Positions 22,701-47,137 of a DNA stretch of 64,000 nucleotides are shown one piece after another. Within the stretch, counting starts at the first letter, position 1; the number at the start of each line of letters is the position of its first letter. The translations under genes were made by a program, and so were the position numbers. The stretch is taken from the NCBI GenBank assembly GCA_030390025.1, contig CM059431.1, positions 138,572,001 to 138,636,000 of the forward strand, written 5' to 3'. This stretch comes from Squalus acanthias (lineage: Eukaryota). A model generated the notes under the pieces. The model saw only the letters and a program-made list of their open reading frames with translations, did no database searches and was not told the origin of the DNA.

Positions 22701-22717
22701 TACTCATCGCTCACTTT

Positions 22718-22910
22718 CAGTGCTGGTACTGGTCCCACTCCTGCAGTATTAACAGTGAGCCTTATCTCACAGCTCTGGTGAATCCCTCACTCTGTCAGTG
22801 CTGGTACTGGACCCACTCCTGCAGTATGAACAGTGAGTCTTATCTCACAGCACTGGTGAATCCCTCACTCTGTCAGTGCTGGTACTGGTCCCACTCCTGC
22901 AGTATTAACA
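22718..22910 (+). repeat. 78-bp minisatellite (about 2.5 units), interrupted; the third unit is completed at 44685-44738
   Basis: Units start at 22718, 22796 and 22874 (cagtgctggtactggtcccactcctgcagtattaacagtgagccttatctcacagc...). Confidence 0.92.
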
Positions 22911-22961
22911 AAAATGAGAGTCGCACAACACCAGGTTATAGTCCAACAGATTTATTTAATT

Positions 22962-23000
22962 TTACAAGCTTTCGGAGCAGTTCGCTCCTTCGTCAGGTAA
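22962..23000 (-). ncRNA. Identical hammerhead motif on the opposite strand (mirror arm of the palindrome)
   Basis: Exact reverse complement of 23008-23046. Confidence 0.78.
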
Positions 23001-23007
23001 GCTAAAC

Positions 23008-23046
23008 TTACCTGACGAAGGAGCGAACTGCTCCGAAAGCTTGTAA
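23008..23046 (+). ncRNA. Minimal type I hammerhead ribozyme motif (PLE type)
   Basis: UUAC-CUGACGA-A-GGAGC-gaacu-GCUCC-GAAA-GC-UU-GUAA: stem I UUAC/GUAA, conserved core, 5-bp stem II, palindromic AAGCUU minimal helix III. Confidence 0.8.
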
Positions 23047-23149
23047 AATTAAATAAATCTGTTGGACTATAACCTGGTGTTCATCTTTTTGGTTGGACAA
23101 ATCAAAATTTACTGTAAATCAATTAAAACTTGAAATGAAACTTAATAAA

Positions 23150-27049: not shown

Positions 27050-27074
27050 CTCAGAAGCATAGTGCAACCTCTAC

Positions 27075-29223
27075 CTAACGGAGGGGAGGGAGCGCGGTCA
27101 CTGACGACCGCCACTCCCTCAGCAGCCCAGTGTGGAAACTCTTGAGCCGACGCAGCTCGAGCCGGCCAACGTCCTTGTCCGCGCCCATGAATTTAACGGC
27201 GGCGCGGACGGACACGACGAGCAGCGCCAGCTCCGACCACTTGTCGAGGGCCAGCCGGATCTTCTTGTGACGACCCTGGCTCACGGCCATAAAATCCCGG
27301 AGTTCCCCTACGGGGATGAGGGGAGAGTCGGTGAAGGGCACGAGGGCGTCCATCGCCTCGCTGCCGATGGACTCCAAATCGTCCTCGTTGCCCAACACCG
27401 AGTCCCCGTCCTCCTCCGGGAGGTCGTCACCGGCGGCCAACCCGTCCGTCACACGGAGTGCAGCGAACGGCTCGGCCGCACCGGCCGGCCCCGCCTCCGT
27501 CACGATCCCACCCCCAGGATCGGTGGCAGAGGAGTCCACCCTGGGCTCCTTCAGGGGCGCCAGGCCAGGAGGCGGCGGCGGTTCGGGGCCCCCCCCCCGC
27601 CTCAGGCGCCGGAGCGACCGGAGAAACCGGGGAGAAAATAATCCCAAATTCCTCCAGCACGTCCGGCGCCAACAACAGAGACGGAGTCAGGGGGCTTTCC
27701 GTCTCCCCGCCACCAACCTCCGACCCAGCGGGCCGGGGACTGCTACACTCCTCCACCAGGTCGAGCAGTCCCTGGGAGATATCTGGATTGTAAAAGGCGG
27801 GCACGGCTTCAGCCTCTTTGGCCTCGCCCGCCCCAGTCCCCAGGACGCCCGACCCGGCGAGGAGCAACGGTTCCGGTTCTACACTTCCCCCCGCGGGTTG
27901 TTCCGCGCCCCCCCCCACGGGCAGGGTCTCTACCCCATCCCCGGGAGGCACAGGTCGGACAGACTCGGCTGTCTCACCCTCCCGAGGGACAGACGACCCC
28001 TGCCGATCGCGCGCGACGATGACGGTGGTGGGGTGGGGCGCAGCACCCGCGGCGGGCGACTGCCCCCCTTTTGCGGAGGGACCTTCCTCCTCGCAGTCCT
28101 CCTGCTGGGGGCGGAGCTTTCTTTTTAACAAGTTGGGGCCCGGAGAGGGGGAGGCCTCCATGTCTGATGGGGCCTCCCTCTCTGCCCCTTTCCGACGACT
28201 GGGTTTCTTGGGCCCCTCGGGCCCGAGCCCGGCCGCAGGTCTTGATTCAGCTGCCTCAGCAGTTGCGGTCACGGTCACGGGCCCGGGCACGAGGACCCCC
28301 CCAGTCTCATGCGTCCCAACCAACTCCGCGATATACTCGGGCGTGAGTTCGGTCAACTCCGATGTTTCCTCCGCGAGGGGATCCGCCCTTAGATGTTTAT
28401 TTTACCTACGCGCCTTCCTTCCCCCCGGACGCTCTCCTTCCTCCCCGCCGGAGGCCGTGGTGGTGTTGGCCTCCGATTTCGACCGCGCATCCGTCGCCGT
28501 CGACGCGCGGACAGTATCAGGGGGAGGGGGGGCGGCGGCGCCAACCCTGGCCGCGCCAGGTGTCGTGGCGGCCTTGGAGGCGGGGCAGTTTTTGCGGACG
28601 TGCCCCACCTCCTTACAGGCGTAGCACCGCACGCCGTCCGAGGTCCAGAAGACGCGGTGGGCGGTCCCCCCGTGGAGCACCGTGAACGCGCCGTCCGCGT
28701 CCTCCTCCCGCGCCAGCCGGACGAAAAGCTGGCGCCGGAAGGAGAAGACGTGCCGAAGGCTGGCTTCCCGGAAGCCGAGCGGGATGGGTGTGATCCCCGA
28801 CCTCACCTCCCCCAGTTGACGTAGGTGGGGGAGGAGGAGCTCACCCGGAACAAAGGGCGGGACGTTGGAAACCACAATCCTTTGCGCGGTGGCCTCAAGG
28901 GGGTCCACCGGCAGGAAGGTCCCGCCCACGGTGAGCCCCTTCTCGATGGCCAGGGACACCGCCCGCTCCGACCCCAGGAAGAACACAGCCTTGCCGTACA
29001 TTTTAGAGGCGGCGACGATGGCTGAAGGGCCGACAACCCCAGCCATGGCTTTAACGCACGCCTCTATAGTCATGTTGGGGTGAGTGTAGCTCTTGACCCC
29101 ATTCTTCCTCGTAAGGAGGGTAAAAGGTGACGGGGTAACAGGAGGACTCGTGGCTGCGGCCGCGGCTGCCACGCTCGCATACGTCCTCGCTGCCCCCGCC
29201 ACCGACCAAGATGTACTCGCCAT
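27075..29223 (-). pseudogene. Tx1 ORF1 copy 1 (RRM-like region, zinc knuckle, long low-complexity tail), frameshifted
   Basis: MAST..., RIVVSNVPPFV, SFRRQLFV, CYACKEVGHVRKNC. Frame breaks near 28400 and near 27570-27600. Confidence 0.88.
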
Positions 29224-30333
29224 AATGGAGGGTTCTTTAAGGGCTACACTCACCCCAAGTCACAGGCCTGAAGGTGTTAATGGCCTCGGTTTTTTTGTTT
29301 TAGTTTTCCCCTGAGCAGAGGGAGCTCTTAAATTGAAGGCACACCTCTCCCTTTATATGAATTAATTGGGAGAGGGGCCTTCTCCCCTCTGCTCAATGGG
29401 TACTTAATAAAAAGATAATGAGGTGCCTCTTAGAGAGAGAGGCAGAGAGAGACAAGAGACAAAGAGAGAGAGAGAGGGGGGTGGGAAGGAGGGAAGCCGC
29501 AAGGGCAGGGTCGCCACTCAGGATGGTGGGTGGGTGGGTGTTGGCAGGGGGGTGCACTCTCCGATGTAATAAAAGTCTTTGGTGGTGGTCTTCTGGTGGG
29601 GGGAGAAGATGTCTTCACCTGGGATAGCTGGAGACGCCCAGGCTCAGTCCTGCACCAGGTCTTAACGATGCCCAATAAGATTAAATTAATTGGGGAACTT
29701 CACCTAGGCAGCTCCAGCTGTCCCAGGTCAGGCAATGGGAAAGGGGTGTTTAATATGGTGTGTGCGGCCTAGCTTTTACAGAAGCCACACACACTCACAC
29801 ACACACCCCTTAGATGTTCCGGCCTTCTTCTTTTCTTCTTTCCTCCTCCCACCTACAAAACAAAGTCTCTGGGAGAGTGCACCAGAATCACACCCACCTG
29901 TAGCTTTGTTCTTTCCTTCCTTCTTCCTTCCAAACAGATGATGTTTGTTGGTGATGTTTTTCTCCCCTCTCTCCCTCTCCTAAAATGGAGGCCAATTGAG
30001 GAGGCAGTGTGGAAAGGCCTCTCCTCTGTTGTTAATGGCCTTGGCCTTCTTTTCTTTTCTTTCTCCTCTCCTGTCCTCTCTCTCCAGGCACCTCAGTAGT
30101 GGTTGTTGGTTGTTGGTGGTGGTCTGCTGTCTGGTCTCCTTCTCCTTCTCCTCTTCCTGGTCACAGAGACCACCACTCTGCTGCTGCTGCTGCTGCTGCT
30201 CCCCACAAGCTTGTGATTTCAAATAAAGCTGTTGGACTATAACCTGGTGTTGATCTTTTTGGTTGGACAAATCAGGTTGAACAAATCAAAATTTACTGTA
30301 AATCAATTAAAACTTGAAATGAAACTTAATAAA

Positions 30334-33300
30334 TCAAATTAAAATTTGAAAGTCCGGGGTGACGATGCAATCCAGTCCCCGCGGCGCCCACCGGTCGCGG
30401 AAAAACTCAAGCGTGCCGGCGGACACCGCGTGCTCCATCTCCAGGGCCACCCGGGCGCGAACATGGCCGCGGAAGAGAGGCAGGCAATCGGGCCGAACGA
30501 CCCCCTCGACCGCCCGCTGCCTGGACCAATTAATGGCTTTCTTGGCCAGGCCCAGGAGCAGTCCTACGAGGAGGTCCTCCGACCTACCCGCTCCCCTCCG
30601 CACCGGGTGACCGTAGATCAGGAGCGTGGGGCTGAAGTGCAACCAGAAATTGAGGAGCAGCCCCTTCAAATAATGAAAGAGGGGCTGCAACCTCTCACAC
30701 TCAATATAAATGTGATAGACGGACTCCTCCAGGCCGCAGAAATGGCAAGCAGCCTGGGAGTCCGTAAACCTACTTAAAATCCTATTGCACGGGACTGCTC
30801 CGTGCAACACCCTCCAGGCCAAGTCCCCAATAGAACAAGGGAAGACTCCCGCGTAGAGAGCCTTCCAATGGGGACCTTCGCCTCCGCCGGACGGCAGGAT
30901 GGTACGCCAAGGCGTGTCCGGACGGCAGACGAAGATGGCAAAGTGGAGAGTGTGCAGGAGCAGCCCGTACAGGAAACGCCTCCGTGCGGATTGAAAGGGC
31001 ACGGAGGGCATTTCTCCGAGAAGGCTCAAGTGGTGAGGCGGCGGCTCCCGAGGGAGGATTCGGGGCCGGGCGCCGATAAGGAATTCCGTCCGAACGGGGG
31101 TCAGTTCGGACGGGATCGCCCCACGTGCTTGAGCCTCCTCGACACACCTAGTGGAGACGGGGCCCAGTGCCACTTTTAGCGACTCGATGGCTTTGACCGC
31201 GAGCCGGACGTTGACCCAGGACATGCGCCTCGCCAACTCCTCCGGCGCCATCCAGCCCGCTCCTCCGCCATCGAGCAGGTCCCCGACTCTGGTCACCTTA
31301 CCGGGCACAGCCCTGCCCTCCGCCAGCCAGCCGAACCCGCGGTCGTGGAGGTGCGGATTCCTGAACAGCGGCTCCCGAAGGACGGCCGCCGCTCCTGACG
31401 GGGGAGAACTGCGCTCGGAGGCGACGCTGTTCCAAACCCATAGCAGTTCCTGGTAGAAGACAGGCAGCTCCCGCAGGCTGGCACGCGTGCCACCCACTCT
31501 CACAAACAGGAGCTGCGTGTCGTAATTGAGGCCGTGCAGCTGGCGGAAGAAATACGTCGCCAGCGCACGCCACCTAGGAGGATTCTCTACGTACAGGTAT
31601 CTCTGCAGCGTCTGAAGACGGAAAGTCGCCGCCTGGGTGCGAAGGCACACCAGCGCCTGACCGCCCTCGCTAAGCGGGAGACTCAAAACTGCGGCAGAGA
31701 CCCAGTGCTTCCTTTTGTCCCGGAAGAAGTCGACGAGCTTCTTCTGCATCTTGGCGACAAACGCAGGGGGAGGGATCAAAGTGATCAACCGGTACCACAA
31801 CATGGCGGCCACCAGCTGGTTTATGACCAGCGCTCGACCCCTGTAGGACAACACTCGGAGCAGTCCTGTCCAGCGTCCTAGGCGAGCGGTGACTTTGGCC
31901 TCCAGCTCTTGCCAGTTCGCCGGCCAGGCGTCCTCGGCCGGGCTGAGGTAGACTCCCAGGTAGAGGAGGTGCGTGGTGCTCCAGGCGAAAGGCCCGAACT
32001 CCTCCGGCAGGGAGTCCACCCGCCATGGGCCCACCAGGAGTCCAGAACATTTCTCCCAGTTGATCTTGGCGGAGGATGCGTCCGAGTAAATCTGCTGGCA
32101 TTCTCGCATCCTCCGCAAGTCGACGGGATCCGTGACCGCGAGGAGCACGTCATCGGCGTAAGCCGAGAGGACCACCTCCACGCCCGGCCCTTGCAGAGCC
32201 AGTCCCGTCAACCTCTTCCGCAAGAGGCGCAGGAAAGGCTCCACGCAAACGGCGTATAACTGACCGGACATGGGGCATCCCTGACGCACCCCCCTCCCGA
32301 AGCGAAGGGGCGCCGTCAAAGACCCGTTAACTTTAATCAGACACTCCGCGGCGGCGTACAGAAGTCGGATCCGGGCGACGAAATGCGTCCCGAACCCGAA
32401 TGCGCGCAGAGTCCCGAAAAGATACTCGTGATCCACCCTGTCGAACGCCTTCTCCTGATCCAGGGAAAGGAAGGCGACCGACAGACCAGCCCTCTGGGAA
32501 TGGTGGACCAGGTCCCGGACCAGATGGATGTTATCGTGGATGCTCCGGCCCGGGACCGTGTAGGACTGGTCGGGGTGGATCATGCGGGCCAGCACGGTGC
32601 CAAGGCGAGCAGACATAGCCCTGGCGAAAATTTTGTAGTCCGTGCTGAGGAGGGAGACCGGGCGCCAGTTCTTAAGTAGGCGGAGATCGCCCTTCTTGGG
32701 CAGCAGGACGATGACCGCCCTGCGCCAAGAGAGGGGCATCTCCCCGGTCGCCAGACTTTCCCCCAGGACCCGCGCGTAGTCGTCCCCCAAGACGTCCCAG
32801 AACGCCCTGTGGAACTCCACGGTCAGCCCGTCCAGCCCCGGGGACTTGCCCCTCGAGAGCTGGCGCAGGGCGCCGGTCAGCTCCGCCAGGCTTAGCGGAG
32901 CTTCTAAATTCTCGGCGCCCTCCGGGCCGACCTTCGGCAGGTCCTCCCACAAAACTCTGCGCGCATCCTCGCTGGACGGATCCGAAGAGAACAGAGCCCC
33001 GTAATAGGCCCGGGCCTCCGCGCTGATGCCCTCCGGATCCGAGACCAGAGATCCGTCGTCGGCCAGCAGCCCCAAGAGCTGCTTACGGACCCCCCGTCTT
33101 TTTTCCAGCGAGTAGAAGAAGGGGGAGCCGCGGTCCAGGTCCCGCAGGAACTGGATCCGCGACCTCACGTACGCGCCTCGGGACCCGACCAGCTGCAGGT
33201 CCTTCAGCGCGCCCTTCTTCTCTTCGTACACCTTCCGCAGGGCCGGGTCCTCGACGACTTGACCGAGACGGGACTCCAGGTCGAGCACTTCTTTCTCCAA

Positions 33301-34233
33301 TCGCCCGACCCGGGCCGCCCGCCTCTTGGTCGACCCCTTCGCGTACTCCTGACAGAAGACGCGGACGTGAGCCTTGCCCACGTCCCACCATAGCCTCAAG
33401 GAGGGGAAGCCTCCCCGCTTCCTTCTCCAGTCGGCCCAGAACCGGCGAAACGAATCCCGGAACCGCGCGTCCTCCAGCAGCAGGTTGTTAAAATGCCAGT
33501 ACGCGGACCCCCCCCGCGCGCGCAGCGGAGCGAGCTCCGCCCACACCAGGTGGTGGTCCGTGCACGGCACCGGCCGCATGGAAGCCGCCGGAACGCAGGA
33601 GACGTACGCCCGGGAAATGTAAAGGCGGTCGATTCTGGACCTTCCTCCTCCAGACCTCACGCTCGTGAAGGCGCTGGAGTCGGGATGGAGATTTCGCCAG
33701 ACGTCCACCAAGTCGAAGGACCCGACCAGGTCCCGCAACTTCTCCATCGCCGCCGGGCTTCGCGGGGGACCCGACCGGTCCCGCGCCTCGAGGGTACAAT
33801 TGAAATCCCCCCCGAGGATGACGCACTCGCCCACGTCGATGGAGCCCAGAAGAGCGGACACTTCTCCGAAGAAGCGCACTTGCTGCGCACCGGTCCGGGG
33901 GGCGTACACGTTCACTAAATGGAGCGGCACGCCTCCCAGGCGAACAGTGACCTGGAGCAAGCGGCCCGGCACGTGCTCCTTGACCCTCAAGATCTCCGGC
34001 TGAAAATGCGGGGCCAGCAAGACAGCCACCCCGCAGGAATTGTTAGAGAGGTGACTCATGCTGACCCCTCCTTGCCACTCCAGGAGCCACGTGGCCTCGT
34101 CTCCCGGAACGGTGTGGGTTTCTTGCAGGAAGCACACCGCATATTTCCCGTCCCGAAGGACCGAGAAGTTATTGAATCTACGGCGCGCCTCCCTGCTGCC
34201 GTTGATGTTGAGGCTGGCTATGGTTATCTTCAT
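30334..34233 (-). CDS. Tx1 ORF2 copy 2, intact, 1299 aa
   Basis: Same motifs, with a few substitutions versus copy 1 (e.g. KRRAAR, FFRDKR, LSEGG, GLDCIV). Confidence 0.97.
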   Translation of the reverse strand: MKITIASLNINGSREARRRFNNFSVLRDGKYAVCFLQETHTVPGDEATWLLEWQGGVSMSHLSNNSCGVAVLLAPHFQPEILRVKEHVPGRLLQVTVRLGGVPLHLVNVYAPRTGAQQVRFFGEVSALLGSIDVGECVILGGDFNCTLEARDRSGPPRSPAAMEKLRDLVGSFDLVDVWRNLHPDSSAFTSVRSGGGRSRIDRLYISRAYVSCVPAASMRPVPCTDHHLVWAELAPLRARGGSAYWHFNNLLLEDARFRDSFRRFWADWRRKRGGFPSLRLWWDVGKAHVRVFCQEYAKGSTKRRAARVGRLEKEVLDLESRLGQVVEDPALRKVYEEKKGALKDLQLVGSRGAYVRSRIQFLRDLDRGSPFFYSLEKRRGVRKQLLGLLADDGSLVSDPEGISAEARAYYGALFSSDPSSEDARRVLWEDLPKVGPEGAENLEAPLSLAELTGALRQLSRGKSPGLDGLTVEFHRAFWDVLGDDYARVLGESLATGEMPLSWRRAVIVLLPKKGDLRLLKNWRPVSLLSTDYKIFARAMSARLGTVLARMIHPDQSYTVPGRSIHDNIHLVRDLVHHSQRAGLSVAFLSLDQEKAFDRVDHEYLFGTLRAFGFGTHFVARIRLLYAAAECLIKVNGSLTAPLRFGRGVRQGCPMSGQLYAVCVEPFLRLLRKRLTGLALQGPGVEVVLSAYADDVLLAVTDPVDLRRMRECQQIYSDASSAKINWEKCSGLLVGPWRVDSLPEEFGPFAWSTTHLLYLGVYLSPAEDAWPANWQELEAKVTARLGRWTGLLRVLSYRGRALVINQLVAAMLWYRLITLIPPPAFVAKMQKKLVDFFRDKRKHWVSAAVLSLPLSEGGQALVCLRTQAATFRLQTLQRYLYVENPPRWRALATYFFRQLHGLNYDTQLLFVRVGGTRASLRELPVFYQELLWVWNSVASERSSPPSGAAAVLREPLFRNPHLHDRGFGWLAEGRAVPGKVTRVGDLLDGGGAGWMAPEELARRMSWVNVRLAVKAIESLKVALGPVSTRCVEEAQARGAIPSELTPVRTEFLIGARPRILPREPPPHHLSLLGEMPSVPFQSARRRFLYGLLLHTLHFAIFVCRPDTPWRTILPSGGGEGPHWKALYAGVFPCSIGDLAWRVLHGAVPCNRILSRFTDSQAACHFCGLEESVYHIYIECERLQPLFHYLKGLLLNFWLHFSPTLLIYGHPVRRGAGRSEDLLVGLLLGLAKKAINWSRQRAVEGVVRPDCLPLFRGHVRARVALEMEHAVSAGTLEFFRDRWAPRGLDCIVTPDFQILI

Positions 34234-34258
34234 CTCAGAAGCATAGTGCAACCTCTAC

Positions 34259-36414
34259 CTAACGGAGGGGAGGGAGCGCGGTCACTGACGACCGCCACTC
34301 CCTCAGCAGCCCAGTGTGGAAACTCTTGAGCCGACGCAGCTCGAGCCGGCCAACGTCCTTGTCCGCGCCCATGATTTTAACGGCGGCGCGGACGGACACG
34401 ACGAGCAGCGCCAGCTCCGACCACTTGTCGAGGGCCAGCCGGATCTTCTTGTGACGACCCTGGCTCACGGCCATAAAATCCCGGAGTTCCCCTACGGGGA
34501 TGAGGGGAGAGTCGGTGAAGGGCACGAGGGCGTCCATCACCTCGCTGCCGATGGACTCCAAATCGTCCTCGTTGCCCAACACCGAGTCCCCGTCCTCCTC
34601 CGGGAGGTCGTCACCGGCGGCCAACCCGTCCGTCACACGGGGTGCAGCGAACGGCTCGGCCGCACCGGCCGGCCCCGCCTCCGTCACGATCCCACCCCCA
34701 GGATCGGTGGCAGAGGAGTCCACCCTGGGCTCCTTCAGGGGCGCCGGGCCGGGAGGCGGCGGCGGCGGTTCGGGGCCCCCCCCCGCCTCAGGCGCCGGGG
34801 CGACCGGAGAAACCGGGGAGAAAATAATCCCAAATTCCTCCAGCACGTCCGGCGCCAACGACAGAGACGGAGTCAGGGGGCTTTCCGTCTCCCCGCCACC
34901 AACCTCCGACCCAGCGGGCTGGGGATTGCTACACTCCTCCACCAGGTCGAGCAGTCCCTGGGAGATGTCTGGGTTATAAAAGGCGGGCTCGGCTTCAGCC
35001 TCTTTGGCCTCGCCCGCCCCAGTCCCCAGGACGCCCGACCCGGCGAGGAGCAACGGTTCCGGTACTACATTTCCCTCCGCGGGTTGTTCCGCGCCCCCCC
35101 CCCACGGGCAGGGTCTCTTCCCCATCCCCGGGAGGCACAGGTCGGACAGACTCGGCTGTCTCACCCTCCCGAGGGACAGACGACCCCTGCCGATCGCGCG
35201 CGACGATGACGGTGGTGGGGTGGGGCGCAGCACCCGCGGCGGGCGACTGCCCCCCTTTTGCGGAGGGACCTTCCTCCTCGCAGTCCTCCTGCTGGGGGCG
35301 GAGCTTTCTTTTTAACAAGTTGGGGCCCGGAGAGGGGGAGGCCTCCATGTCTGCTGGGGCCTCCCTCTCTGCCCCTTCCGACGACTGGGTTTCTTGGGCC
35401 CCTCGGGCCCGAGCCCGGCCGCAGGTCTTGATTTAGCTGCCTCAGCAGTTGCGGTCACGGTCACGGGCCCGGGCACGAGGACCCCCCCAGTCTCATGCGT
35501 CCCGACCAACTCCGCGATATACTCGGGCGTGAGTTCGGTCAATTCCGATGTTTCCTCCGCGAGGGGATCCGCCCTTAGTGTTTATTTTTCCTACGCGCCT
35601 TCCTTCCCCCCGGACGCTCTCCCTCCTCCCCGCCGGAGGCCGTGGTGGTGTTGGCCTCCGATTTCGACCGCGCATCCGTCGCCGTCGACGCGCGGACAGT
35701 ATCAGGGGGAGGGGGGGCGGCGGCGCCAACCCTGGCCGCGCCAGGTGTCGTGGCGGCCTTGGAGGCGGGGCAGTTTTTGCGGACGTGCCCCACCTCCTTA
35801 CAGGCGTAGCACCGCACGCCGTCCGAGGTCCAGAAGACGCGGTGGGCGGTCCCCCCGTGGAGCACCGTGAACGCGCCATCCGCGTCCTCCTCCCGCGCCA
35901 GCCGGACGAAAAGCTGGCGCCGGAAGGAGAAGACGTGCCGAAGGCTGGCTTCCCGGAAGCCGAGCGGGATGGGTGTGATCCCCGACCTCACCTCCCCCAG
36001 TTGACGTAGGTGGGGGAGGAGGAGCTCACCCGGAACAAAGGGCGGGACGTTGGAAACCACAATCCTTTGCGCGGTGGCCTCAAGGGGGTCCACCGGCAGG
36101 AAGGTCCCGCCCACGGTGAGCCCCTTCTCGATGGCCAGGGACACCGCCCGCTCCGACCCCAGGAAGAACACAGCCTTGCCGTACATTTTAGAGGCGGCGA
36201 CGATGGCTGAAGGGCCGACAACCCCAGCCATGGCTTTAACGCACGCCTCTATAGTCATGTTGGGGTGAGTGTAGCTCTTGACCCCATTCTTCCTCGTAAG
36301 GAGGGTAAAAGGTGACGGGGTAACAGGAGGACTCGTGGCTGCGGCCGTGGCCGCGGCTGCCACGCTCGCGTACGTCCTCGCTGCCCCCGCCACCGACGAA
36401 GATGTACTCGCCAT
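34259..36414 (-). pseudogene. Tx1 ORF1 copy 2, frameshifted
   Basis: Split over ORFs 35575-36444, 35312-35542, 34995-35348 and 34259-35233. Confidence 0.88.
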
Positions 36415-37509
36415 AATGGAGGGTTCTTTAAGGGCTACACTCACCCCAAGTCACAGGCCTGAAGGTGTTAATGGCCTCGGTTTTTTTGTTTTAGTTTTCC
36501 CCTGAGCAGAGGGAGCTCTTAAATTGAAGGCACACCTCTCCCTTTATATGAATTAATTGGGAGAGGGGCCTTCTCCCCTCTGCTCAATGGGTACTTAATA
36601 AAAGTAAATTGAGGTGCCTCTTAGAGAGAGAGGCAGAGAGAGACAAGAGACAAAGAGAGAGAGAGAGGGGGTGGGAAGGAGGGAAGCCGCAAGGGCAGGG
36701 TCGCCACTCAGGATGGTGGGTGGGTGGGTGTTGGCAGGGGGGTGCACTCTCCGATGTAATAAAAGTCTTTGGTGGTGGTCTTCTGGTGGGGGGAGAAGAT
36801 GTCTTCACCTGGGATAGCTGGAGATGCCCAGGCTCAGTCCTGCACCAGGTCTTAACGATGCCCAATAAGATTAAATTAATTGGGGAACTTCACCTAGGCA
36901 GCTCCAGCTGTCCCAGGTCAGGCAATGGGAAAGGGGTGTTTAATATGGTGTGTGCGGCCTAGCTTTTACAGAAGCCACACACACTCACACACACACCCCT
37001 TAGATGTTCCGGCCTTCTTCTTTTCTTCTTTCCTCCCCCACCTACAAAACAAAGTCTCTGGGAGAGTGCACCAGAATCACACCCACCTGTAGCTTGTTCT
37101 TTCCTTCCTTCTCCTCCTTCCAAACAGATGATGTTGTTGGTGTTGTTTTCTCCCCTCTCTCCCTCTCCTAAAATGGAGGCCAATTGAGGAGGCAGTGTGG
37201 AAAGGCCTCTCCTCTGTTGTTAATGGCCTTGGCCTTCTTTCTTTCTTTCTCCTCTCCTGTCCTCTCTCTCCAGGCACCTCAGTAGTGGTTGTTGGTTGTT
37301 GGTGGTGGTCTGCTGTCTGGTCTCCTTCTCCTTCTCCTCTTCCTGGTCACAGAGACCACCACTCTGCTGCTGCTGCTCCTCGTCAGCAGCTCCGAAAGCT
37401 TGTGATTTCAAATAAAGCTGTTGGACTATAACCTGGTGTTGATCTTTTTGGTTTGACAGAACGCAAATTTACTGTAAATCAATTAAAACTTGAAATGAAA
37501 CTTAATAAA

Positions 37510-40500
37510 TCAAATTAAAATTTGAAAGTCCGGGGTGACGATGCACTCCAGTCCCCGCGGCGCCCACCGGTCGCGGAAAAACTCAAGCGTGCCGGCGGAC
37601 ACCGCGTGCTCCATCTCCAGGGCCACCCGGGCGCGAACATGGCCGCGGAAGAGAGGCAGGCAATCGGGCCGAACGACCCCCTCGACCGCCCGCTGCCTGG
37701 ACCAATTAATGGCTTTCTTGGCCAGGCCCAGGAGCAGTCCTACGAGGAGGTCCTCCGACCTACCCGCTCCCCTCCGCACCGGGTGACCGTAGATCAGGAG
37801 CGTGGGGCTGAAGTGCAACCAGAAATTGAGGAGCAGCCCCTTCAAATAATGAAAGAGGGGCTGCAACCTCTCACATTCAACATAAATGTGATAAACGGAC
37901 TCCTCCAGGCCGCAAAAATGGCAAGCAGCCTGGGAGTCCGTAAACCTACTTAAAATCCTATTGCACGGGACTGCTCCGTGCAACACCCTCCAGGCCAAGT
38001 CCCCAATAGAACAAGGGAAGACTCCCGCGTAGAGAGCCTTCCAATGGGGACCTTCGCCTCCGCCGGACGGCAGGATGGTACGCCAAGGCGTGTCCGGACG
38101 GCAGACGAAGATGGCAAAGTGGAGAGTGTGCAGGAGCAGCCCGTACAGGAAACGCCTCCGTGCGGATTGAAAGGGCACGGAGGGCATTTCTCCGAGAAGG
38201 CTCAAGTGGTGAGGCGGCGGCTCCCGAGGGAGGATTCGGGGCCGGGCGCCGATAAGGAATTCCGTCCGAACGGGGGTCAGTTCGGACGGGATCGCCCCAC
38301 GTGCTTGAGCCTCCTCGACACACCTAGTGGAGACGGGGCCCAGTGCCACTTTTAGCGACTCGATGGCTTTGACCGCGAGCCGGACGTTGACCCAAGACAT
38401 GCGCCTCGCCAACTCCTCCGGCGCCATCCAGCCCGCTCCTCCGCCATCGAGCAGGTCCCCGACTCTGGTCACCTTACCGGGCACAGCCCTGCCCTCCGCC
38501 AGCCAGCCGAACCCGCGGTCGTGGAGGTGCGGATTCCTGAACAGCGGCTCCCGAAGGACGGCCGCCGCTCCTGACGGGGGAGAACTGCGCTCGGAGGCGA
38601 CGCTGTTCCAAACCCATAGCAGTTCCTGGTAGAAGACAGGCAGCTCCCGCAGGCTGGCACGCGTGCCACCCACTCTCACAAACAGGAGCTGCGTGTCGTA
38701 ATTGAGGCCGTGCAGCTGGCGGAAGAAATACGTCGCCAGCGCACGCCACCTAGGAGGATTCTCCACGTACAGGTATCTCTGCAGCGTCTGAAGACGGAAA
38801 GTCGCCGCCTGGGTGCGAAGGCACACCAGCGCCTGACCGCCCTCCCTAAGCGGGAGACTCAAAACCGCGGCAGAGACCCAGTGCTTCCTTTTGTCCCAGA
38901 AGAAGTCGACGAGCTTCTTCTGCATCTTGGCGACAAACGCAGGGGGAGGGATCAAAGTGACCAACCGGTACCACAACATGGCGGCCACCAGCTGGTTTAT
39001 GACCAGCGCTCGACCCCTGTAGGACAACACTCGGAGCAGTCCTGTCCAGCGTCCTAGGCGAGCGGTGACTTTGGCCTCCAGCTCTTGCCAGTTCGCCGGC
39101 CAGGCGTCCTCGGCCGGGCTGAGGTAGACTCCCAGGTAGAGGAGGTGCGTGGTGCTCCAGGCGAAAGGCCCGAACTCCTCCGGCAGGGAGTCCACCCGCC
39201 ATGGGCCCACCAGGAGTCCAGAACATTTCTCCCAGTTGATCTTGGCGGAGGATGCGTCCGAGTAAATCTGCTGGCATTCTCGCATCCTCCGCAAGTCGAC
39301 GGGATCCGTGACCGCGAGGAGCACGTCATCGGCGTAAGCCGAGAGGACCACCTCCACGCCCGGCCCTTGCAGAGCCAGTCCCGTCAACCTCTTCCGCAAG
39401 AGGCGCAGGAAAGGCTCCACGCAAACGGCGTATAACTGACCGGACATGGGGCATCCCTGACGCACCCCCCTCCCGAAGCGAAGGGGCGCCGTCAAAGACC
39501 CGTTAACTTTAATGAGACACTCCGCGGCGGCGTACAGAAGTCGGATCCGGGCGACGAAATGCGTCCCGAACCCGAATGCGCGCAGAGTCCCGAAAAGATA
39601 CTCGTGATCCACCCTGTCGAACGCCTTCTCCTGATCCAGGGAAAGGAAGGCGACCGACAGACCAGCCCTCTGGGAATGGTGGACCAGGTCCCGGACCAGA
39701 TGGATGTTATCGTGGATACTCCGGCCCGGGACCGTGTAGGACTGGTCGGGGTGGATCATGCGGGCCAGCACGGTGCCAAGGCGAGCAGACATAGCCCTGG
39801 CGAAAATTTTGTAGTCCGTGCTGAGGAGGGAGACCGGGCGCCAGTTCTTAAGTAGGCGGAGATCGCCCTTCTTGGGCAGCAGGACGATGACCGCCCTGCG
39901 CCAAGAGAGGGGCATCTCCCCGGTCGCCAGACTTTCCCCCAGGACCCGCGCGTAGTCGTCCCCCAAGACGTCCCAGAACGCCCTGTGGAACTCCACGGTC
40001 AGCCCGTCCAGCCCCGGGGACTTGCCCCTCGAGAGCTGGCGCAGGGCGCCGGTCAGCTCCGCCAGGCTTAGCGGAGCTTCTAAATTCTCGGCGCCCTCCG
40101 GGCCGACCTTCGGCAGGTCCTCCCACAAAACTCTGCGCGCATCCTCGCTGGACGGATCCGAAGAGAACAGAGCCCCGTAATAGGCCCGGGCCTCCGCGCT
40201 GATGCCCTCCGGATCCGAGACCAGAGATCCGTCGTCGGCCAGCAGCCCCAAGAGCTGCTTACGGACCCCCCGTCTTTTTTCCAGCGAGTAGAAGAAGGGG
40301 GAGCCGCGGTCCAGGTCCCGCAGGAACTGGATCCGCGACCTCACGTACGCGCCTCGGGACCCGACCAGCTGCAGGTCCTTCAGCGCGCCCTTCTTCTCTT
40401 CGTACACCTTCCGCAGGGCCGGGTCCTCGACGACCTGACCGAGACGGGACTCCAGGTCGAGCACTTCTTTCTCCAATCGCCCGACCCGGGCCTCCCGCCT

Positions 40501-41409
40501 CTTGGTCGACCCCTTCGCGTACTCCTGACAGAAGACGCGGACGTGAGCCTTGCCCACGTCCCACCATAGCCTCAAGGAGGGGAAGCCTCCCCGCTTCCTT
40601 CTCCAGTCGGCCCAGAACCGGCGAAACGAATCCCGGAACCGCGCGTCCTCCAGCAGCAGGTTGTTAAAATGCCAGTACGCGGACCCCCCCCGCGCGCGCA
40701 GCGGAGCGAGCTCCGCCCACACCAGGTGGTGGTCCGTGCACGGCACCGGCCGCATGGAAGCCGCCGGAACGCAGGAGACGTACGCCCGGGAAATGTAAAG
40801 GCGGTCGATTCTGGACCTTCCTCCTCCAGACCTCACGCTCGTGAAGGCGCTGGAGTCGGGATGGAGATTTCGCCAGACGTCCACCAAGTCGAAGGACCCG
40901 ACCAGGTCCCGCAACTTCTCCATCGCCGCCGGGCTTCGCGGGGGACCCGACCGGTCCCGCGCCTCGAGGGTACAATTGAAATCCCCCCCGAGGATGACGC
41001 ACTCGCCCACGTCGATGGAGCCCAGAAGAGCGGACACTTCTCCGAAGAAGCGCACTTGCTGCGCACCGGTCCGGGGGGCGTACACGTTCACTAAATGGAG
41101 CGGCACGCCTCCCAGGCGAACAGTGACCTGGAGCAAGCGGCCCGGCACGTGCTCCTTGACCCTCAAGATCTCCGGCTGAAAATGCGGGGCCAGCAAGACA
41201 GCCACCCCGCAGGAATTGTTGGAGAGGTGACTCATGCTGACCCCTCCTTGCCACTCCAGGAGCCACGTGGCCTCGTCTCCCGGAACGGTGTGGGTTTCTT
41301 GCAGGAAGCACACCGCATATTTCCCGTCCCGAAGGACCGAGAAGTTATTGAATCTACGGCGCGCCTCCCTGCTGCCGTTGATGTTGAGGCTGGCTATGGT
41401 TATCTTCAT
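37510..41409 (-). CDS. Tx1 ORF2 copy 3, intact, 1299 aa
   Basis: Same motifs; the protein appears identical or nearly identical to copy 1. Confidence 0.97.
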   Translation of the reverse strand: MKITIASLNINGSREARRRFNNFSVLRDGKYAVCFLQETHTVPGDEATWLLEWQGGVSMSHLSNNSCGVAVLLAPHFQPEILRVKEHVPGRLLQVTVRLGGVPLHLVNVYAPRTGAQQVRFFGEVSALLGSIDVGECVILGGDFNCTLEARDRSGPPRSPAAMEKLRDLVGSFDLVDVWRNLHPDSSAFTSVRSGGGRSRIDRLYISRAYVSCVPAASMRPVPCTDHHLVWAELAPLRARGGSAYWHFNNLLLEDARFRDSFRRFWADWRRKRGGFPSLRLWWDVGKAHVRVFCQEYAKGSTKRREARVGRLEKEVLDLESRLGQVVEDPALRKVYEEKKGALKDLQLVGSRGAYVRSRIQFLRDLDRGSPFFYSLEKRRGVRKQLLGLLADDGSLVSDPEGISAEARAYYGALFSSDPSSEDARRVLWEDLPKVGPEGAENLEAPLSLAELTGALRQLSRGKSPGLDGLTVEFHRAFWDVLGDDYARVLGESLATGEMPLSWRRAVIVLLPKKGDLRLLKNWRPVSLLSTDYKIFARAMSARLGTVLARMIHPDQSYTVPGRSIHDNIHLVRDLVHHSQRAGLSVAFLSLDQEKAFDRVDHEYLFGTLRAFGFGTHFVARIRLLYAAAECLIKVNGSLTAPLRFGRGVRQGCPMSGQLYAVCVEPFLRLLRKRLTGLALQGPGVEVVLSAYADDVLLAVTDPVDLRRMRECQQIYSDASSAKINWEKCSGLLVGPWRVDSLPEEFGPFAWSTTHLLYLGVYLSPAEDAWPANWQELEAKVTARLGRWTGLLRVLSYRGRALVINQLVAAMLWYRLVTLIPPPAFVAKMQKKLVDFFWDKRKHWVSAAVLSLPLREGGQALVCLRTQAATFRLQTLQRYLYVENPPRWRALATYFFRQLHGLNYDTQLLFVRVGGTRASLRELPVFYQELLWVWNSVASERSSPPSGAAAVLREPLFRNPHLHDRGFGWLAEGRAVPGKVTRVGDLLDGGGAGWMAPEELARRMSWVNVRLAVKAIESLKVALGPVSTRCVEEAQARGAIPSELTPVRTEFLIGARPRILPREPPPHHLSLLGEMPSVPFQSARRRFLYGLLLHTLHFAIFVCRPDTPWRTILPSGGGEGPHWKALYAGVFPCSIGDLAWRVLHGAVPCNRILSRFTDSQAACHFCGLEESVYHIYVECERLQPLFHYLKGLLLNFWLHFSPTLLIYGHPVRRGAGRSEDLLVGLLLGLAKKAINWSRQRAVEGVVRPDCLPLFRGHVRARVALEMEHAVSAGTLEFFRDRWAPRGLECIVTPDFQILI

Positions 41410-41434
41410 CTCAGAAGCATAGTGCAACCTCTAC

Positions 41435-43592
41435 CTAACGGAGGGGAGGGAGGGCGGTCACTGACGACCGCCACTCCCTCAGCAGCCCAGTGTGGAACGT
41501 CTTGAGCCGACGCAGCTCGAGCCGGCCAACGTCCTTGTCCGCGCCCATGATTTTAACGGCGGCGCGGACGGACACGACGAGCAGCGCCAGCTCCGACCAC
41601 TTGTCGAGGGCCAGCCGGATCTTCTTGTGACGACCCTGGCTCACGGCCATAAAATCCCGGAGTTCCCCTACGGGGATGAGGGGAGAGTCGGTGAAGGGCA
41701 CGAGGGCGTCCATCACCTCGCTGCCGATGGACTCCAAATCGTCCTCGTTGCCCAACACCGAGTCCCCGTCCTCCTCCGGGAGGTCGTCACCGGCGGCCGA
41801 CCCGTCCGTCACACAGGGTGCAGCGAACGGCTCGGCCGCACCGGCCGGCCCCGCCTCCGTCACGATCCCACCCCCAGGATCGGTGGCAGAGGAGTCCACC
41901 CTGGGCTCCTTCAGGGGCGCCGGGCCGGGAGGCGGCGGCGGCGGTTCGGGGCCCCCCCCCGCCTCAGGCGCCGGGGCGACCGGAGAAACCGGGGAGAAAA
42001 TAATCCCAAATTCCTCCAGCACGTCCGGCGCCAACAACAGAGACGGAGTCAGGGGGCTTTCCGTCTCCCCGCCACCAACCTCCGACCCAGCGGGCTGGGG
42101 ATTGCTACACTCCTCCACCAGGTCGAGCAGTCCCTGGGAGATGTCTGGGTTATAAAAGGCGGGCTCGGCTTCAGCCTCTTTGGCCTCGCCCGCCCCAGTC
42201 CCCAGGACGCCCGACCCGGCGAGGAGCAACGGTTCAGGTTCTACATTTTCCTTCCGCGGGTTGTTCCGCGCCCCCCCCCACGGGCAGGGTCTCTTCCCCA
42301 TCCCCGGGAGGCACAGGTCGGACAGACTCGGCTGTCTCACCCTCCCGAGGGACAGACGACCCCTGCCGATCGCGCGCGACGATGACGGTGGTGGGGTGGG
42401 GCGCAGCACCCGCGGCGGGCGACTGCCCCCCTTTTGCGGAGGGATCTTCCTCCTCGCAGTCCTCCTGCTGGGGGCGGAGCTTTCTTTTTAACAAGTTGGG
42501 GCCCGGAGAGGGGGAGGCCTCCATGTCTGCTGGGGCCTCCCTCTCTGCCCCCTTCCGACGACTGGGTTTCTTGGGCCCCTCGGGCCCGAGCCCGGCCGCA
42601 GGTCTTGATTTAGCTGCCTCAGCAGTTGCGGTCACGGTCACGGGCCCGGGCACGAGGACCCCCCCAGTCTCATGCGTCCCGACCAACTCCGCGATGTACT
42701 CGGGCGTGAGTTCGGTCAATTCAGATGTTTCCTCCGCGAGGGGATCCGCCCTTATGTGTTTAGTTTTCCTACGCACCTTCCTTCCCCCCGGACGCTCTCC
42801 CTCCTCCCCGCCGGAGGCCGTGGTGGTGTTGGCCTCCGATTTCGACCGCGCATCCGTCGCCGTCGACGCGCGGACAGTATCAGGGGGAGGGGGGGCGGCG
42901 GCGCCAACCCTGGCCGCGCCAGGTGTCGTGGCGGCCTTGGAGGCGGGGCAGTTTTTGCGGACGTGCCCCACCTCCTTACAGGCGTAGCACCGCGCGCCGT
43001 CCGAGGTCCAGAAGACGCGGTGGGCGGTCCCCCCGTGGAGCACCGTGAACGCGCCATCCGCGTCCTCCTCCCGCGCCAGCCGGACGAAAAGCTGGCGCCG
43101 GAAGGAGAAGACGTGCCGAAGGCTGGCTTCCCGGAAGCCGAGCGGGATGGGTGTGATCCCCGACCTCACCTCCCCCAGTTGACGTAGGTGGGGGAGGAGG
43201 AGCTCACCCGGAACAAAGGGCGGGACGTTGGAGACCACAATCCTTTGCGCGGTGGCCTCAAGGGGGTCCACCGGCAGGAAGGTCCCGCCCACGGTGAGCC
43301 CCTTCTCGATGGCCAGGGACACCGCCCGCTCCGACCCCAGGAAGAACACAGCCTTGCCGTACATTTTAGAGGCGGCGACGATGGCTGAAGGGCCGACAAC
43401 CCCAGCCATGGCTTTAACGCACGCCTCTATAGTCATGTTGGGGTGAGTGTAGCTCTTGACCCCATTCTTCCTCGTAAGGAGGGTAAAAGGTGACGGGGTA
43501 ACAGGAGGACTCGTGGCTGCGGCCGTGGCCGCGGCTGCCACGCTCGCGTACGTCCTCGCTGCCCCCGCCACCGACGAAGATGTACTCGCCAT
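41435..43592 (-). pseudogene. Tx1 ORF1 copy 3 with a single +1 frameshift (about 718 aa if repaired)
   Basis: ORFs 42234-43622 and 41435-42409 overlap. There is one extra base in the T run at 42246-42249 relative to copy 2. Confidence 0.88.
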
Positions 43593-44628
43593 AATGGAGG
43601 GTTCTTTAAGGGCTACACTCACCCCAAGTCACAGGCCTGAAGGTGTTAATGGCCTCGGTTTTTTTTTTTGTTTCCCCTGAGCAGAGGGAGCTCTTAAATT
43701 GAAGGCACACCTCTCCCTTTAGTTGATTGAATTGGGAGAGGGGCCTTCTCCCCTCTGCTCAATGGGTACTTAATAAAAGTTAATTGAGGTGCCTCTTAGA
43801 GAGAGAGGCAGAGAGAGACAAGAGACAAAGAGAGAGAGAGAGAGGGGGGTGGGAAGGAGGGAAGCCGCAAGGGCAGGGTCGCCACTCAGGATGGTGGGTG
43901 GGTGGGTGGGTGTTGGCAGGGGGGTGCACTCTCCGATGTAATAAAAGTCTTTGGTGGTGGTCTTCTGGTGGGGGGAGAAGATGTCTTCACCTGGGATAGC
44001 TGGAGATGCCCAGGCTCAGTCCTGCACCAGGTCTTAACGATGCCCAATAAGATGAAATTAATTGGGGACTTCACCTAGGCAGCTCCAGCTGTCCCAGGTC
44101 AGGCAATGGGAAAGGGGTGTTTAATATGGTGTGTGCGGCCTAGCTTTTACAGAAGCCACACACACTCACACACACACCCCTTAGATGTTCCGGCCTTCTT
44201 CTTTTCTTCTTTCCTCCCCCCACCTACAAAACAAAGTCTCTGGGAGAGTGCCCCAGAATCACACCCACCTGTAGCTGTTCTTTCTTTCTTTCTCCCTCCT
44301 TCCAAACAGTTGATGATGTTGTGTTGTTTTCTCCCCTCTCTCCCTCTCCTAAAATGGAGGCCAATTGAGGAGGCAGTGATGGAAAAGGCCTCTCCTCTGG
44401 TGTTATTGGCCTTGGCCTTCCTTTCTTTTCTTTCTCCTCTCCTGTCCTCTCTCTCCAGGCACCTCAGTAGTTGTGGTTGTTGGTTGTTGGTGGTGGCCTG
44501 CTGTCTGGTCTGGTCTCCTTCTCCTCTTCCTGGCCACAGAGACCACCACTCTGCTGCTGCTGCTCCTTCGTCAGCAGCTCCGAAAGCTTGTGATTTCAAA
44601 TAAAGCTGTTGGACTATAACCTGGTGTT

Positions 44629-44684
44629 GTGCGACTTCTCATTTTTGTCCACCCCAGTCCAACGCCGGCATCTCCACATCATGA
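44629..44684 (+). mobile_element. Right remainder of the Penelope-type element
   Basis: gtgcgacttctcatttttgt pairs with 22908-22926 (1-nt indel), followed by the tail ccaccccagtccaacgccggcatctccacatcat and then the TSD. Confidence 0.85.
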
Positions 44685-44738
44685 GCAGTATTAACAGTGA
44701 GCCTTATCTCACAGCACTGGTGAATCCCTCACTCTGTC
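44685..44738 (+). repeat. Continuation of the interrupted 78-bp repeat unit
   Basis: gcagtattaacagtgagccttatctcacagcactggtgaatccctcactctgtc. Confidence 0.9.
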
Positions 44739-44739
44739 C

Positions 44740-46799: not shown

Positions 46800-47137
46800 G
46801 AGTGAGAGTCCCATTGACTCAGATACACACTGGTCCTGGAGATGGACTGGAGAGAAAGGTCAGAGAGAGTGTCCCATTGACTCAGATACACACTGGTCCT
46901 GGAGATGGACTGGAGAGAAAGGTCAGAGAGAGTGTCCCATTGACTCAGATACACACTGGTCCTGGAGATGGACTGGAGAGAAAGGTCAGAGAGAGTGTCC
47001 CATTGACTCAGATACACACTGGTCCTGGAGATGGACGAGGAGAAAGGTCAGAGAGAGTCCCATTGACTCAGATACACACTGGTCCTGGAGATGGGCCGAG
47101 GAGAAAGGTCAGAGAGAGTCCTATTGACTCAGATACA
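46800..47137 (+). repeat. 61-63-bp tandem repeat (about 5.5 units), resumes at 52390
   Basis: Same unit as 16776-16992; interrupted by nested CR1s. Confidence 0.92.

What the first reader, a model, noticed from the sequence alone, without database searches (positions are those of the whole stretch)
44555..44628. The element's 5' end carries a copy of the downstream target, rebuilding the insertion site
Seen: reading the element strand, each copy begins, right after the 23-mer, with ctttatttgaaatcacaagctt(tcggagc). This is a diverged version of the true downstream target atttatttaattttacaagctttcggagc. Copy 3 continues with tgctgacgaaggagc and copy 2 with tgctgacgaggagc, which resemble a collapsed piece of the hairpin's hammerhead core. 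The variant (gtgatttc/aaag) is shared by all three copies and differs from this locus's target, so it belongs to the element. Inference: after insertion, upstream flank plus TSD plus the 5' end re-forms a ~50-bp target. The next copy can then insert in front of the previous one, producing head-to-tail stacks without destroying the site.
Basis: partly seen in the sequence, partly recalled or inferred. Interest (0 to 1): 0.85.

Follow-up and report, generated by a model that had tools for sequence, protein, structure and literature searches.

The report
Target-mimicking head of a site-specific LINE
A young jumping gene of the Tx1 family, which inserts at one spot in a very common repeat, carries at its own front end a copy of the target sequence that lies just past its insertion point; this copy is real and present genome-wide, but it more likely helps complete full-length insertion than serves mainly to build stacks.

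Summary
All three 7.2-kb minus-strand copies start, after the 23-mer, with CTTTATTTGAAATCACAAGCTT. So do 23 independent loci elsewhere and 15 of 15 heads sampled without bias.

The element is a Tx1-clade LINE: its intact ORF2 is 50% identical to Xenopus Tx1 over its full length. It nicks at CAACAC in the conserved end of a retroposon I call R, whose target core has 90,712 exact copies.

The head belongs to the element. It differs from the local downstream target in 5 of 5 loci and matches the genome-wide target consensus.

The true duplication is about 16 bp (CAACACCAGGTTATAG), not 23. TCCAACAG also comes with the element, so the head continues the target in register from the second-strand cut.

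The hammerhead reading finds no support: Rfam gave no hit.

The stacking mechanism is unproven and not required, because the original target survives downstream. Arrays are nevertheless more than tenfold commoner than random re-hits would give.

The strongest functional clue is that at least 69 of 100 on-target copies are full-length, against 4 of 27 off-target copies. I therefore favour homology-guided 5' completion, with site regeneration as a by-product.

The parts
37442..44613 (-). Copy 3 (most upstream) of the Tx1-clade LINE, counted from the element-borne TCCAACAG to the 3' end ...AACCAAAAAGAT. ORF2 is intact at 37510-41409 (1299 aa).
   Evidence: boundaries from the duplication analysis.
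30253..37425 (-). Copy 2. ORF2 is intact at 30334-34233. Its 3' end carries a 14-nt duplication (TGATTTGTTCAACC TGATTTGTCCAACC) that marks a subfamily.
23083..30236 (-). Copy 1 (most downstream). ORF2 is at 23150-27049 (APE + RT + zf-RVT) and ORF1 at 28402-29223 (CCHC knuckle). Its head is the shortened subfamily form, CTTTATTTGAAATCACAAGCTT+GTGGGGAGCAGC.
44572..44613 (-). Element-borne target copy of copy 3: TCCAACAG + CTTTATTTGAAATCACAAGCTTTCGGAGC + TGCTG. It runs in register with the target from the second-strand cut onward. Equivalent heads begin at 37425 (copy 2) and 30236 (copy 1).
44556..44571 (-). ACGAAGGAGCAGC(AGC), the reverse complement of the target's next bases GCTGCTCCTTCGT. It looks like the trace of a palindromic (hairpin-form) target copy, and it is followed by an (AGC)n run.
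   Evidence: Origin is inferred.
44614..44629 (-). Upstream copy of the true target-site duplication CAACACCAGGTTATAG. Further copies lie between array members at 37426-37441 and 30237-30252, and downstream at 23067-23082 (there GAACAC...).
   Evidence: off-target duplications of 13-16 bp starting CAACAC; L044, L047; L106/L107.
44630..44685 (-). Upstream part of the target repeat R (called X here), running to R's terminus (...CATCATG on the + strand).
   Evidence: R boundary at 44682-44684 from loose ends.
22910..23066 (.). Remainder of the hairpin-form copy of R that received the array. The short left arm starts at 22910, the palindrome centre is near 22995-23005, and the right arm runs up to the insertion point.
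22900..22909 (+). cagtattaac, the 10-bp duplication flanking the whole hairpin-form R. The second copy is at 44686-44695. R itself was inserted into a 63-bp minisatellite.
   Evidence: read directly.

Best explanation
The 7.2-kb unit is a young Tx1-clade, APE-type LINE, probably still active.

Shown: its endonuclease nicks at CAACAC, and the second cut falls about 16 nt downstream. About 95% of its 3' ends lie at one site in the conserved terminal module of the very abundant retroposon R.

Shown: every full-length copy carries as its first bases a copy of the target, running in register from the second-strand cut for about 42 nt.

Inferred origin: a fossil of a founder insertion in a hairpin-form R copy, arising from a long duplication or 5' transduction. 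It has since been inherited because the RNA starts at or upstream of it.

Inferred function: when reverse transcription reaches the RNA 5' end, the 3' end of the cDNA is complementary to the target's top strand around the second cut. It can pair or strand-invade there, so that second-strand cleavage and priming occur at a fixed place. The result is a seamless, full-length 5' junction.

On this view the re-created target upstream of each copy is a by-product. It may add to array growth, but it is not the reason arrays form.
For: Identity of the element:
- ORF2 is 1299 aa with Exo_endo_phos, RVT_1 and zf-RVT domains.
- It is 50% identical over 100% of its length to Xenopus 'Transposon TX1 149 kDa protein' (P0004).

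Site and cuts:
- There are 908 on-target 3' ends against 42 off-target-type matches.
- In 17 of 21 analysed rows, off-target copies have 13-16-bp duplications starting (C)AACAC.

The head is element-borne and in register:
- 15 of 15 heads found through the upstream copy's 3' end carry it.
- It differs from the local target in 5 of 5 loci.
- TCCAACAG upstream faces TCCAGCAG or TCTAACAG downstream in 2 of 2 informative loci.
- Truncated on-target copies keep only 13-16 nt of the 23-mer.

Function:
- Of 100 on-target 3' ends taken in genome order, at least 69 have the 5'-UTR marker 6.9-7.3 kb upstream.
- The marker count (906) is close to the 3'-end count (908).
- Only 4 of 27 independent off-target loci are full-length or nearly so. 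Fisher p = 4.5e-7.
- All 4 of those have R-type sequence at their 5' side.
- One off-target copy (L013/L048) carries the 55-nt X, the 23-mer and the head inside its own 17-bp duplication, so the template reached upstream of the head.

Precedent:
- R2 RNAs that keep upstream 28S sequence give uniform 5' junctions (PMC3774820, abstract).
- Upstream rRNA on R2Bm RNA is needed for full-length insertion, and a branched intermediate has been proposed (PMC6895275, sections 12 and 14).
Against: - No RNA 5' end was mapped. The only runs found are contigs of uncertain kind.
- Homology to the upstream target (X plus duplication) would suffice for annealing, so the downstream-type part of the head may be a passenger.
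- The subfamily with a shortened head (22 nt plus TCCAACAG) is also full-length and occurs in arrays. At most about 30 nt can therefore matter.
- The on-target versus off-target contrast could have other causes, such as different RNP states or selection.
- Three of the four full-length 'off-target' copies show no duplication and are unexplained.
- The more-than-tenfold excess of arrays is not explained by this model.
Confidence: 0.45

Rival explanations
1. First reader's model. The head is kept because it regenerates a cleavable target upstream of each copy, so new copies insert in front of old ones and build head-to-tail stacks without using up sites.
For: - The upstream junction is sequence-identical to a consensus target over more than 100 nt.
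- Arrays are very common: 246 tandem junctions, and 31 of 100 on-target 3' ends are followed by a full-length head.
- With 90,712 exact target cores, random re-hits should give at most about 2%.
- The three window copies carry different subfamily markers and differ by 0.8-1.2%, so they are separate insertions.
- All 26 adjacent same-strand spacings in a genome-order sample are 7,155-7,208 bp, meaning array members there are full-length.
Against: - The original target persists downstream of every copy. Re-use of it gives the same structure, so the head is not needed.
- In L044 a 5'-truncated copy lies behind another copy and shares a locus-specific duplication with it. L047 holds tandem truncated copies.
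- Downstream targets used by the element are diverse, including the diverged ATTTATTTAATTTTAC type in 3 of 16, so that sequence is not strictly recognised.
- A regenerated site only doubles the number of local sites. That cannot give a more-than-tenfold excess.
- Tandem insertions with a duplication between them occur for R1 and SINEU-3 without such a head (10.1101/158386; PMC4494074).
- Private-mutation counts show no age gradient along the window array: 5, 6 and 7.
Confidence: 0.2
2. Neutral relic. The head is only a fossil, either a founder's long duplication or 5' transduction, or a head picked up by template switching as other Tx1 families pick up U1/U2 heads. It is inherited because transcription starts upstream of it, and it has no role.
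For: - Tx1-Mar families and their SINEs repeatedly acquired foreign 5' heads. One SINE subfamily carries upstream target sequence from its master copy (PMC4494074, sections 16, 17, 20).
- The inverted 13-nt piece after the head looks like debris from a palindromic target copy.
- Part of the head is deleted in a successful subfamily.
- All copies are young, so conservation says little.
Against: - The head is exactly in register with the second-strand cut. A random template switch would rarely give that, though a founder duplication would.
- The strong link between target homology at the 5' side and full-length insertion suggests the homology is used.
Confidence: 0.25
3. Promoter or start-site module. 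The head, with the adjoining target sequence, acts as the element's promoter or initiator, borrowed from the antisense strand of R.
For: - Two copies whose 3' flank is not R start at or near R's terminus. L013 starts CATGATG, inside its own duplication, and the C2804 copy starts (CAC)GATG, with no duplication seen. A defined RNA 5' end there is therefore possible.
- Dependence on flanking target sequence for transcription has been proposed for Tx1-mobilised SINEs (PMC4494074, section 20).
Against: - There is no transcript evidence.
- The 155-nt 5' region has no unusual fold, with z = -0.48.
- Only two cases are informative, and a template switch onto R-derived nucleic acid would explain them as well.
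Confidence: 0.1

Closest known systems
Tx1L of Xenopus laevis (Tx1 clade), site-specific for the transposon Tx1D
   Same: - ORF2 is 50% identical over its full length.
- The architecture matches: APE + RT, with an ORF1 carrying a CCHC knuckle.
- It inserts at one sequence inside another interspersed repeat (PMC4494074 and PMC1950540, passages).
   Different: - The target here is the terminal module of a retroposon, which often occurs in hairpin form.
- The duplication is about 16 bp here. I recall 23 bp for Tx1L, but the original papers were not held.
- I found no description of an in-register target copy at Tx1L's 5' end, and I could not read the primary papers.
Tx1-Mar families and SINEU of crocodilians (Kojima 2015, PMC4494074)
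   Same: - These are Tx1-clade elements aimed at an interspersed transposon.
- 'Tandem insertions sandwiching a TSD' are attributed to sequential insertion.
- They carry acquired 5' heads, and one has a 5' extension made of flanking target sequence.
   Different: Those heads derive from U1/U2 or from upstream target. Here the head is the target sequence immediately downstream of the second cut, in register, and is present in all full-length copies.
R2 elements whose RNA keeps upstream 28S sequence (PMC3774820, abstract; PMC6895275, sections 12 and 14)
   Same: Target-homologous sequence at the RNA 5' end is linked with uniform, full-length 5' junctions, through cDNA-target annealing or a branched intermediate.
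   Different: - R2 has a restriction-like endonuclease, a small stagger and ribozyme processing, and its homology lies upstream of the insertion site.
- Here the element has an APE endonuclease and a 16-nt stagger, the demonstrable homology lies downstream of the second cut, and no ribozyme was detected.
R1 tandem arrays in Drosophila (McGurk and Barbash, bioRxiv 10.1101/158386, passages)
   Same: A site-specific LINE forms head-to-tail arrays with target sequence between units. This is explained by double insertion followed by unequal exchange.
   Different: Here there are hundreds of separate arrays, with members from different subfamilies, and the sequence between units is partly element-borne.

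Membership tests
Tx1 clade of APE-type non-LTR retrotransposons | ORF2 with an N-terminal apurinic-like endonuclease and a reverse transcriptase, closest to Tx1L | tested here: met
   Pfam hits Exo_endo_phos (6-227), RVT_1 (512-761) and zf-RVT. 50% identity over 100% of the query to YTX2_XENLA. No RT phylogeny was built.
Tx1 clade of APE-type non-LTR retrotransposons | Preference for one target sequence, with a target-site duplication | tested here: met
   908 on-target against 42 off-target-type 3' ends. Duplications of 13-16 bp. Locus-specific variants are shared by both flanking copies.
Tx1 clade of APE-type non-LTR retrotransposons | ORF1 upstream of ORF2 | tested here: met
   A 273-aa ORF with a zf-CCHC knuckle. 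Its length varies among the three copies: 273, 279 and 452 aa.
Hammerhead ribozyme (the target's 'hammerhead core') | Match to the covariance models of the hammerhead families (conserved core plus three helices) | tested here: not met
   No hammerhead family at E<=10 in window 22700-23200, nor at E<=1 in L016, L022 and L041; only hairpin-like miRNA models matched. By eye, CUGACGA...GAAA is present, but the base at the expected cleavage position would be G (my reading, not a test).
Hammerhead ribozyme (the target's 'hammerhead core') | Self-cleavage | not testable with these tools
   Needs an in vitro transcription and cleavage assay.
LINEs that use RNA-borne target homology for 5' junction formation (R2 type) | Target-derived sequence at the 5' end of the transposed template | tested here: met
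   The head is element-borne in all full-length copies. One copy carries X, the 23-mer and the head inside its own duplication.
LINEs that use RNA-borne target homology for 5' junction formation (R2 type) | Homology is required for full-length, uniform 5' junctions | tested here: inconclusive
   Correlation only: at least 69 of 100 on-target copies are full-length against 4 of 27 off-target. No experiment was done.
Arrays formed by double insertion at one site (R1 type) | Head-to-tail units separated by the target-site duplication, with members from separate insertion events | tested here: met
   Junctions. The window copies differ in 5' and 3' subfamily markers and by 55-88 substitutions. Some other arrays share local variants, so unequal exchange probably also acts.

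The most novel reading that the evidence does not exclude
The head is a built-in landing pad. An APE-type LINE completes integration by homology-guided pairing of its cDNA end with the target's top strand exactly at the second-strand cut. Because the pad is a copy of the target, every full-length copy also carries a ready-made target site with it. The family can therefore stack on itself and could seed new target sites at off-target loci.
Probability: 0.3. Interest if true: 0.75.

Novelty: new variant of a known kind. Interest (0 to 1): 0.5.

Why it matters
How APE-type LINEs, the group that includes human L1, carry out second-strand cleavage and form the 5' junction is still poorly understood.

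This family offers a natural comparison within one genome. The same element and the same nick motif give mostly full-length, seamless copies where its 5' end matches the target, and mostly short 5'-truncated copies where it does not.

If the head is what makes the difference, the result would extend the R2 idea of target homology on the RNA 5' end to an APE element with a 16-nt stagger. It would also suggest a design rule for RNA-templated insertion of long cargo.

The family shows too that a site-specific element can keep its site supply undiminished. Finally, it gives a countable case of array excess, more than tenfold, that still lacks an explanation.

Tried and rejected
- **Longer duplication (23+29 bp):** rejected. 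The head differs from the local target in 5 of 5 loci.
- **Array made by tandem duplication of one unit:** rejected for the window, because the copies carry different subfamily markers. It is likely for L047, L073/74 and L076/77, where the truncation points are identical, and for C1156, which is a segmental duplication.
- **Penelope-like element or retrozyme:** I considered this at first because of the hammerhead hint. It is rejected by the APE+RT ORF2 and by Rfam.
- **R as a DNA transposon with inverted terminal repeats:** unlikely. The arms are unequal, the centres vary and one boundary is variable.
- **Head as a better target than average R:** rejected as the cause of arrays, because the downstream targets actually used are diverse.
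- **Age gradient along the window array:** not resolvable. Private substitutions number 5, 6 and 7.
- **Test of 'no arrays in front of truncated copies':** underpowered. Truncated on-target copies are rare, there were none in arrays among 100 sampled 3' ends, and there are two counter-examples (L044, L047).
- **Transcript start:** no RNA holder was listed. The four runs laid are contigs and gave no starts.
- **Fold of the 5' region:** not unusual.
- **Pattern at <=2 mismatches:** it also hits empty targets ending ...GCTGCC, so its total of 2,712 is not a count of 5' junctions.
- **5' ends of further long off-target copies:** L087, L089, C3443 and C1934/C3339 have no head at the expected distance. 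C9, C3542 and C2804 have R-like 5' flanks but no duplication.
- **Papers:** the primary Tx1L papers were not held.
- **Earlier findings of this scan:** nothing for this genome or this sequence.

Full report
**What is at the site**

The window comes from a 3.7-Gb eukaryotic assembly. Best protein hits include cartilaginous fishes.

On the minus strand, from about 44613 down to 23083, lie three head-to-tail units of about 7.18 kb. Each has an intact 1299-aa ORF2. That ORF2 carries an apurinic-like endonuclease, a reverse transcriptase and a zf-RVT domain. It is 50% identical over its whole length to the Xenopus 'Transposon TX1 149 kDa protein' (P0004). An ORF1 with a CCHC knuckle precedes it. 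This is a Tx1-clade LINE.

The three copies differ by 0.8-1.2%. They also carry different 5' and 3' subfamily markers, and those same markers recur at other loci. They are therefore separate insertions and not a local duplication.

**The observation**

Chance expects none. The local target version is at 23030-23058 and differs at 5 of 29 positions. The continuations are as described, and copy 1 has a shortened variant.

**Genome-wide check**

A search with the 5' junction returned 30 loci. After removing the window itself, two array-internal junctions and four duplicated loci, 23 independent junctions remain, and all of them carry the segment. That query contained the segment, so I also used heads found only through the 3' end of the copy upstream of them. 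All 15 of 15 carry at least TCCAACAG plus (C/T)TTTATTTGAAATCA..AGCTT.

Where the head and the local downstream target are both known, they differ in 5 of 5 loci: the window, L014/L032, L098/L036, L099/L037 and L107/L106. Empty target copies show that the head equals the family consensus of the target, so the window's own target is the diverged one. The first base of the head is mostly C. In the repeat population, and in the downstream targets actually used, it is mostly T. The segment therefore travels with the element.

**The true duplication and the nick**

Of 42 3' ends not followed by the target, I judged 27 to be independent off-target insertions. In 17 of the 21 rows analysed, the copy is flanked by a 13-16-bp duplication that starts with (C)AACAC and was present once in the empty site. 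The endonuclease therefore nicks before CAACAC, and the second cut lies about 16 nt downstream.

Several observations agree with this:
- On-target 5'-truncated copies keep only 13-16 nt of the '23-mer' (L044, L047, L079, L081).
- Variants inside the first 16 nt are shared by both flanking copies (L044, L106/L107).
- Variants in the last 8 nt of the downstream target are not found upstream (L036/L098, L037/L099).

So the duplication is CAACACCAGGTTATAG. The element-borne head starts with TCCAACAG and continues the target in register for about 42 nt, through ...GGAGCTGCTG, a target variant seen. The next 13 bases are the reverse complement of the target's following bases. That is what a palindromic target copy with its centre at that point would give.

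**The target**

The 30-nt core of the site has 90,712 exact copies. It lies in a conserved module of about 130 nt that ends at a fixed boundary, 44682-44684 in the window.

Many copies are hairpins with unequal arms and variable centres. Among the first 100 cores listed, 38 sit in +/- pairs less than 300 bp apart. The window's hairpin is flanked by its own 10-bp duplication.

I read the repeat, which I call R, as a retroposon tail that often integrates in snap-back form. That reading is inference.

No hammerhead model matches R.

**Arrays**

Tandem junctions number 246. In a genome-order sample, 31 of 100 on-target 3' ends are followed by a full-length head, and all 26 adjacent same-strand spacings are 7,155-7,208 bp.

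With 908 on-target 3' ends among 90,712 perfect cores, random re-hits next to an existing copy should be at most about 2%. The excess is more than tenfold. Unequal exchange probably inflates it, since some arrays share local variants.

Several points weigh against the head being necessary:
- In L044 a truncated copy sits behind another copy.
- Diverged downstream sequences are used.
- A regenerated site only doubles the number of local sites.
- The window array shows no age gradient.
- Sequential insertion with a duplication between units is already described for Tx1-mobilised SINEs (PMC4494074, passages) and for R1 (10.1101/158386, passages).

**What the head may do**

On-target copies are overwhelmingly full-length. 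At least 69 of 100 have the 5'-UTR marker at the right distance, and the marker count (906) is close to the 3'-end count (908). Off-target copies are mostly short: 4 of 27 are full-length or nearly so (Fisher p = 4.5e-7). Each of those four has R-type sequence at its 5' side.

One of them, L013/L048, carries the 55-nt upstream part of R, the 23-mer and the head inside its own 17-bp duplication. The template can therefore extend upstream of the head.

This parallels R2. There, target sequence kept on the RNA 5' end goes with uniform junctions (PMC3774820, abstract) and with full-length insertion through a branched intermediate (PMC6895275, sections 12 and 14).

I therefore favour homology-guided completion of the 5' junction, at a confidence of 0.45. 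In this reading, target regeneration is a consequence rather than the purpose.

**Limits**

- No transcript data could be obtained.
- The primary Tx1L papers were not held. The 23-bp duplication of Tx1L is recalled, not checked.
- My searches found no description of an in-register downstream-target head. Repbase reports and subscription papers were not searched.

Noticed in passing
Genome-wide (one search list); window 22910-23084 plus 44606-44685: The target repeat very often occurs as a hairpin with unequal arms and a variable centre. 38 of the first 100 exact cores are in +/- pairs less than 300 bp apart. This looks like snap-back integration of a 5'-truncated retroposon. The window copy has its own 10-bp duplication.
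   Followed up: partly
G000 C2:164562548/164562682, C2:164776943/164777077, C4:152277722/152277816: Pairs of element 3' ends face each other 94-134 bp apart. The element has apparently inserted into both arms of the same hairpin target.
   Followed up: no
L073/L074, L076/L077, L047: Tandem 5'-truncated copies share the same truncation point and have the duplication between them, even at off-target sites. This suggests re-priming or slippage in one event, or exchange between the short duplications.
   Followed up: partly
L068/L091 (C9), L102/L103 (C3542), L110/L111 (C2804): These are full-length or nearly full-length copies whose 5' flank is R-type but whose 3' flank is unrelated DNA, with no duplication visible. 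Two of them start at the same point, TGAGAAGTCGCAC. Unexplained.
   Followed up: partly
window 30170-30236; L098, L099, L043, L111: There are subfamilies with different heads. One lacks TCGGAGCTGCTGACGAAGGAGC. Others have GAAGGAGAGTGAGGAGCAGC, or a longer CCTCAGCAGCC... stretch, in front of the (AGC)n run.
   Followed up: no
window 21132-22157: A near-perfect tandem array of a 33-bp unit, with more than 20 copies.
   Followed up: no
window 22700-22909, 44686-44745, 46800-47160: A 63-bp minisatellite (cagtattaacagtgagcc...) into which the hairpin repeat was inserted. Further copies of the unit lie 2 kb away.
   Followed up: no
window 44740-45400 (+): A fragment of another LINE's reverse-transcriptase region, with stop codons. 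It looked CR1/L2-like by eye and was not tested.
   Followed up: no
window copies 1-3, ORF1 region: ORF1 length differs among the three copies (273, 279 and 452 aa), and most divergence lies in the 5' 3 kb. The ORF2 region is almost identical.
   Followed up: no
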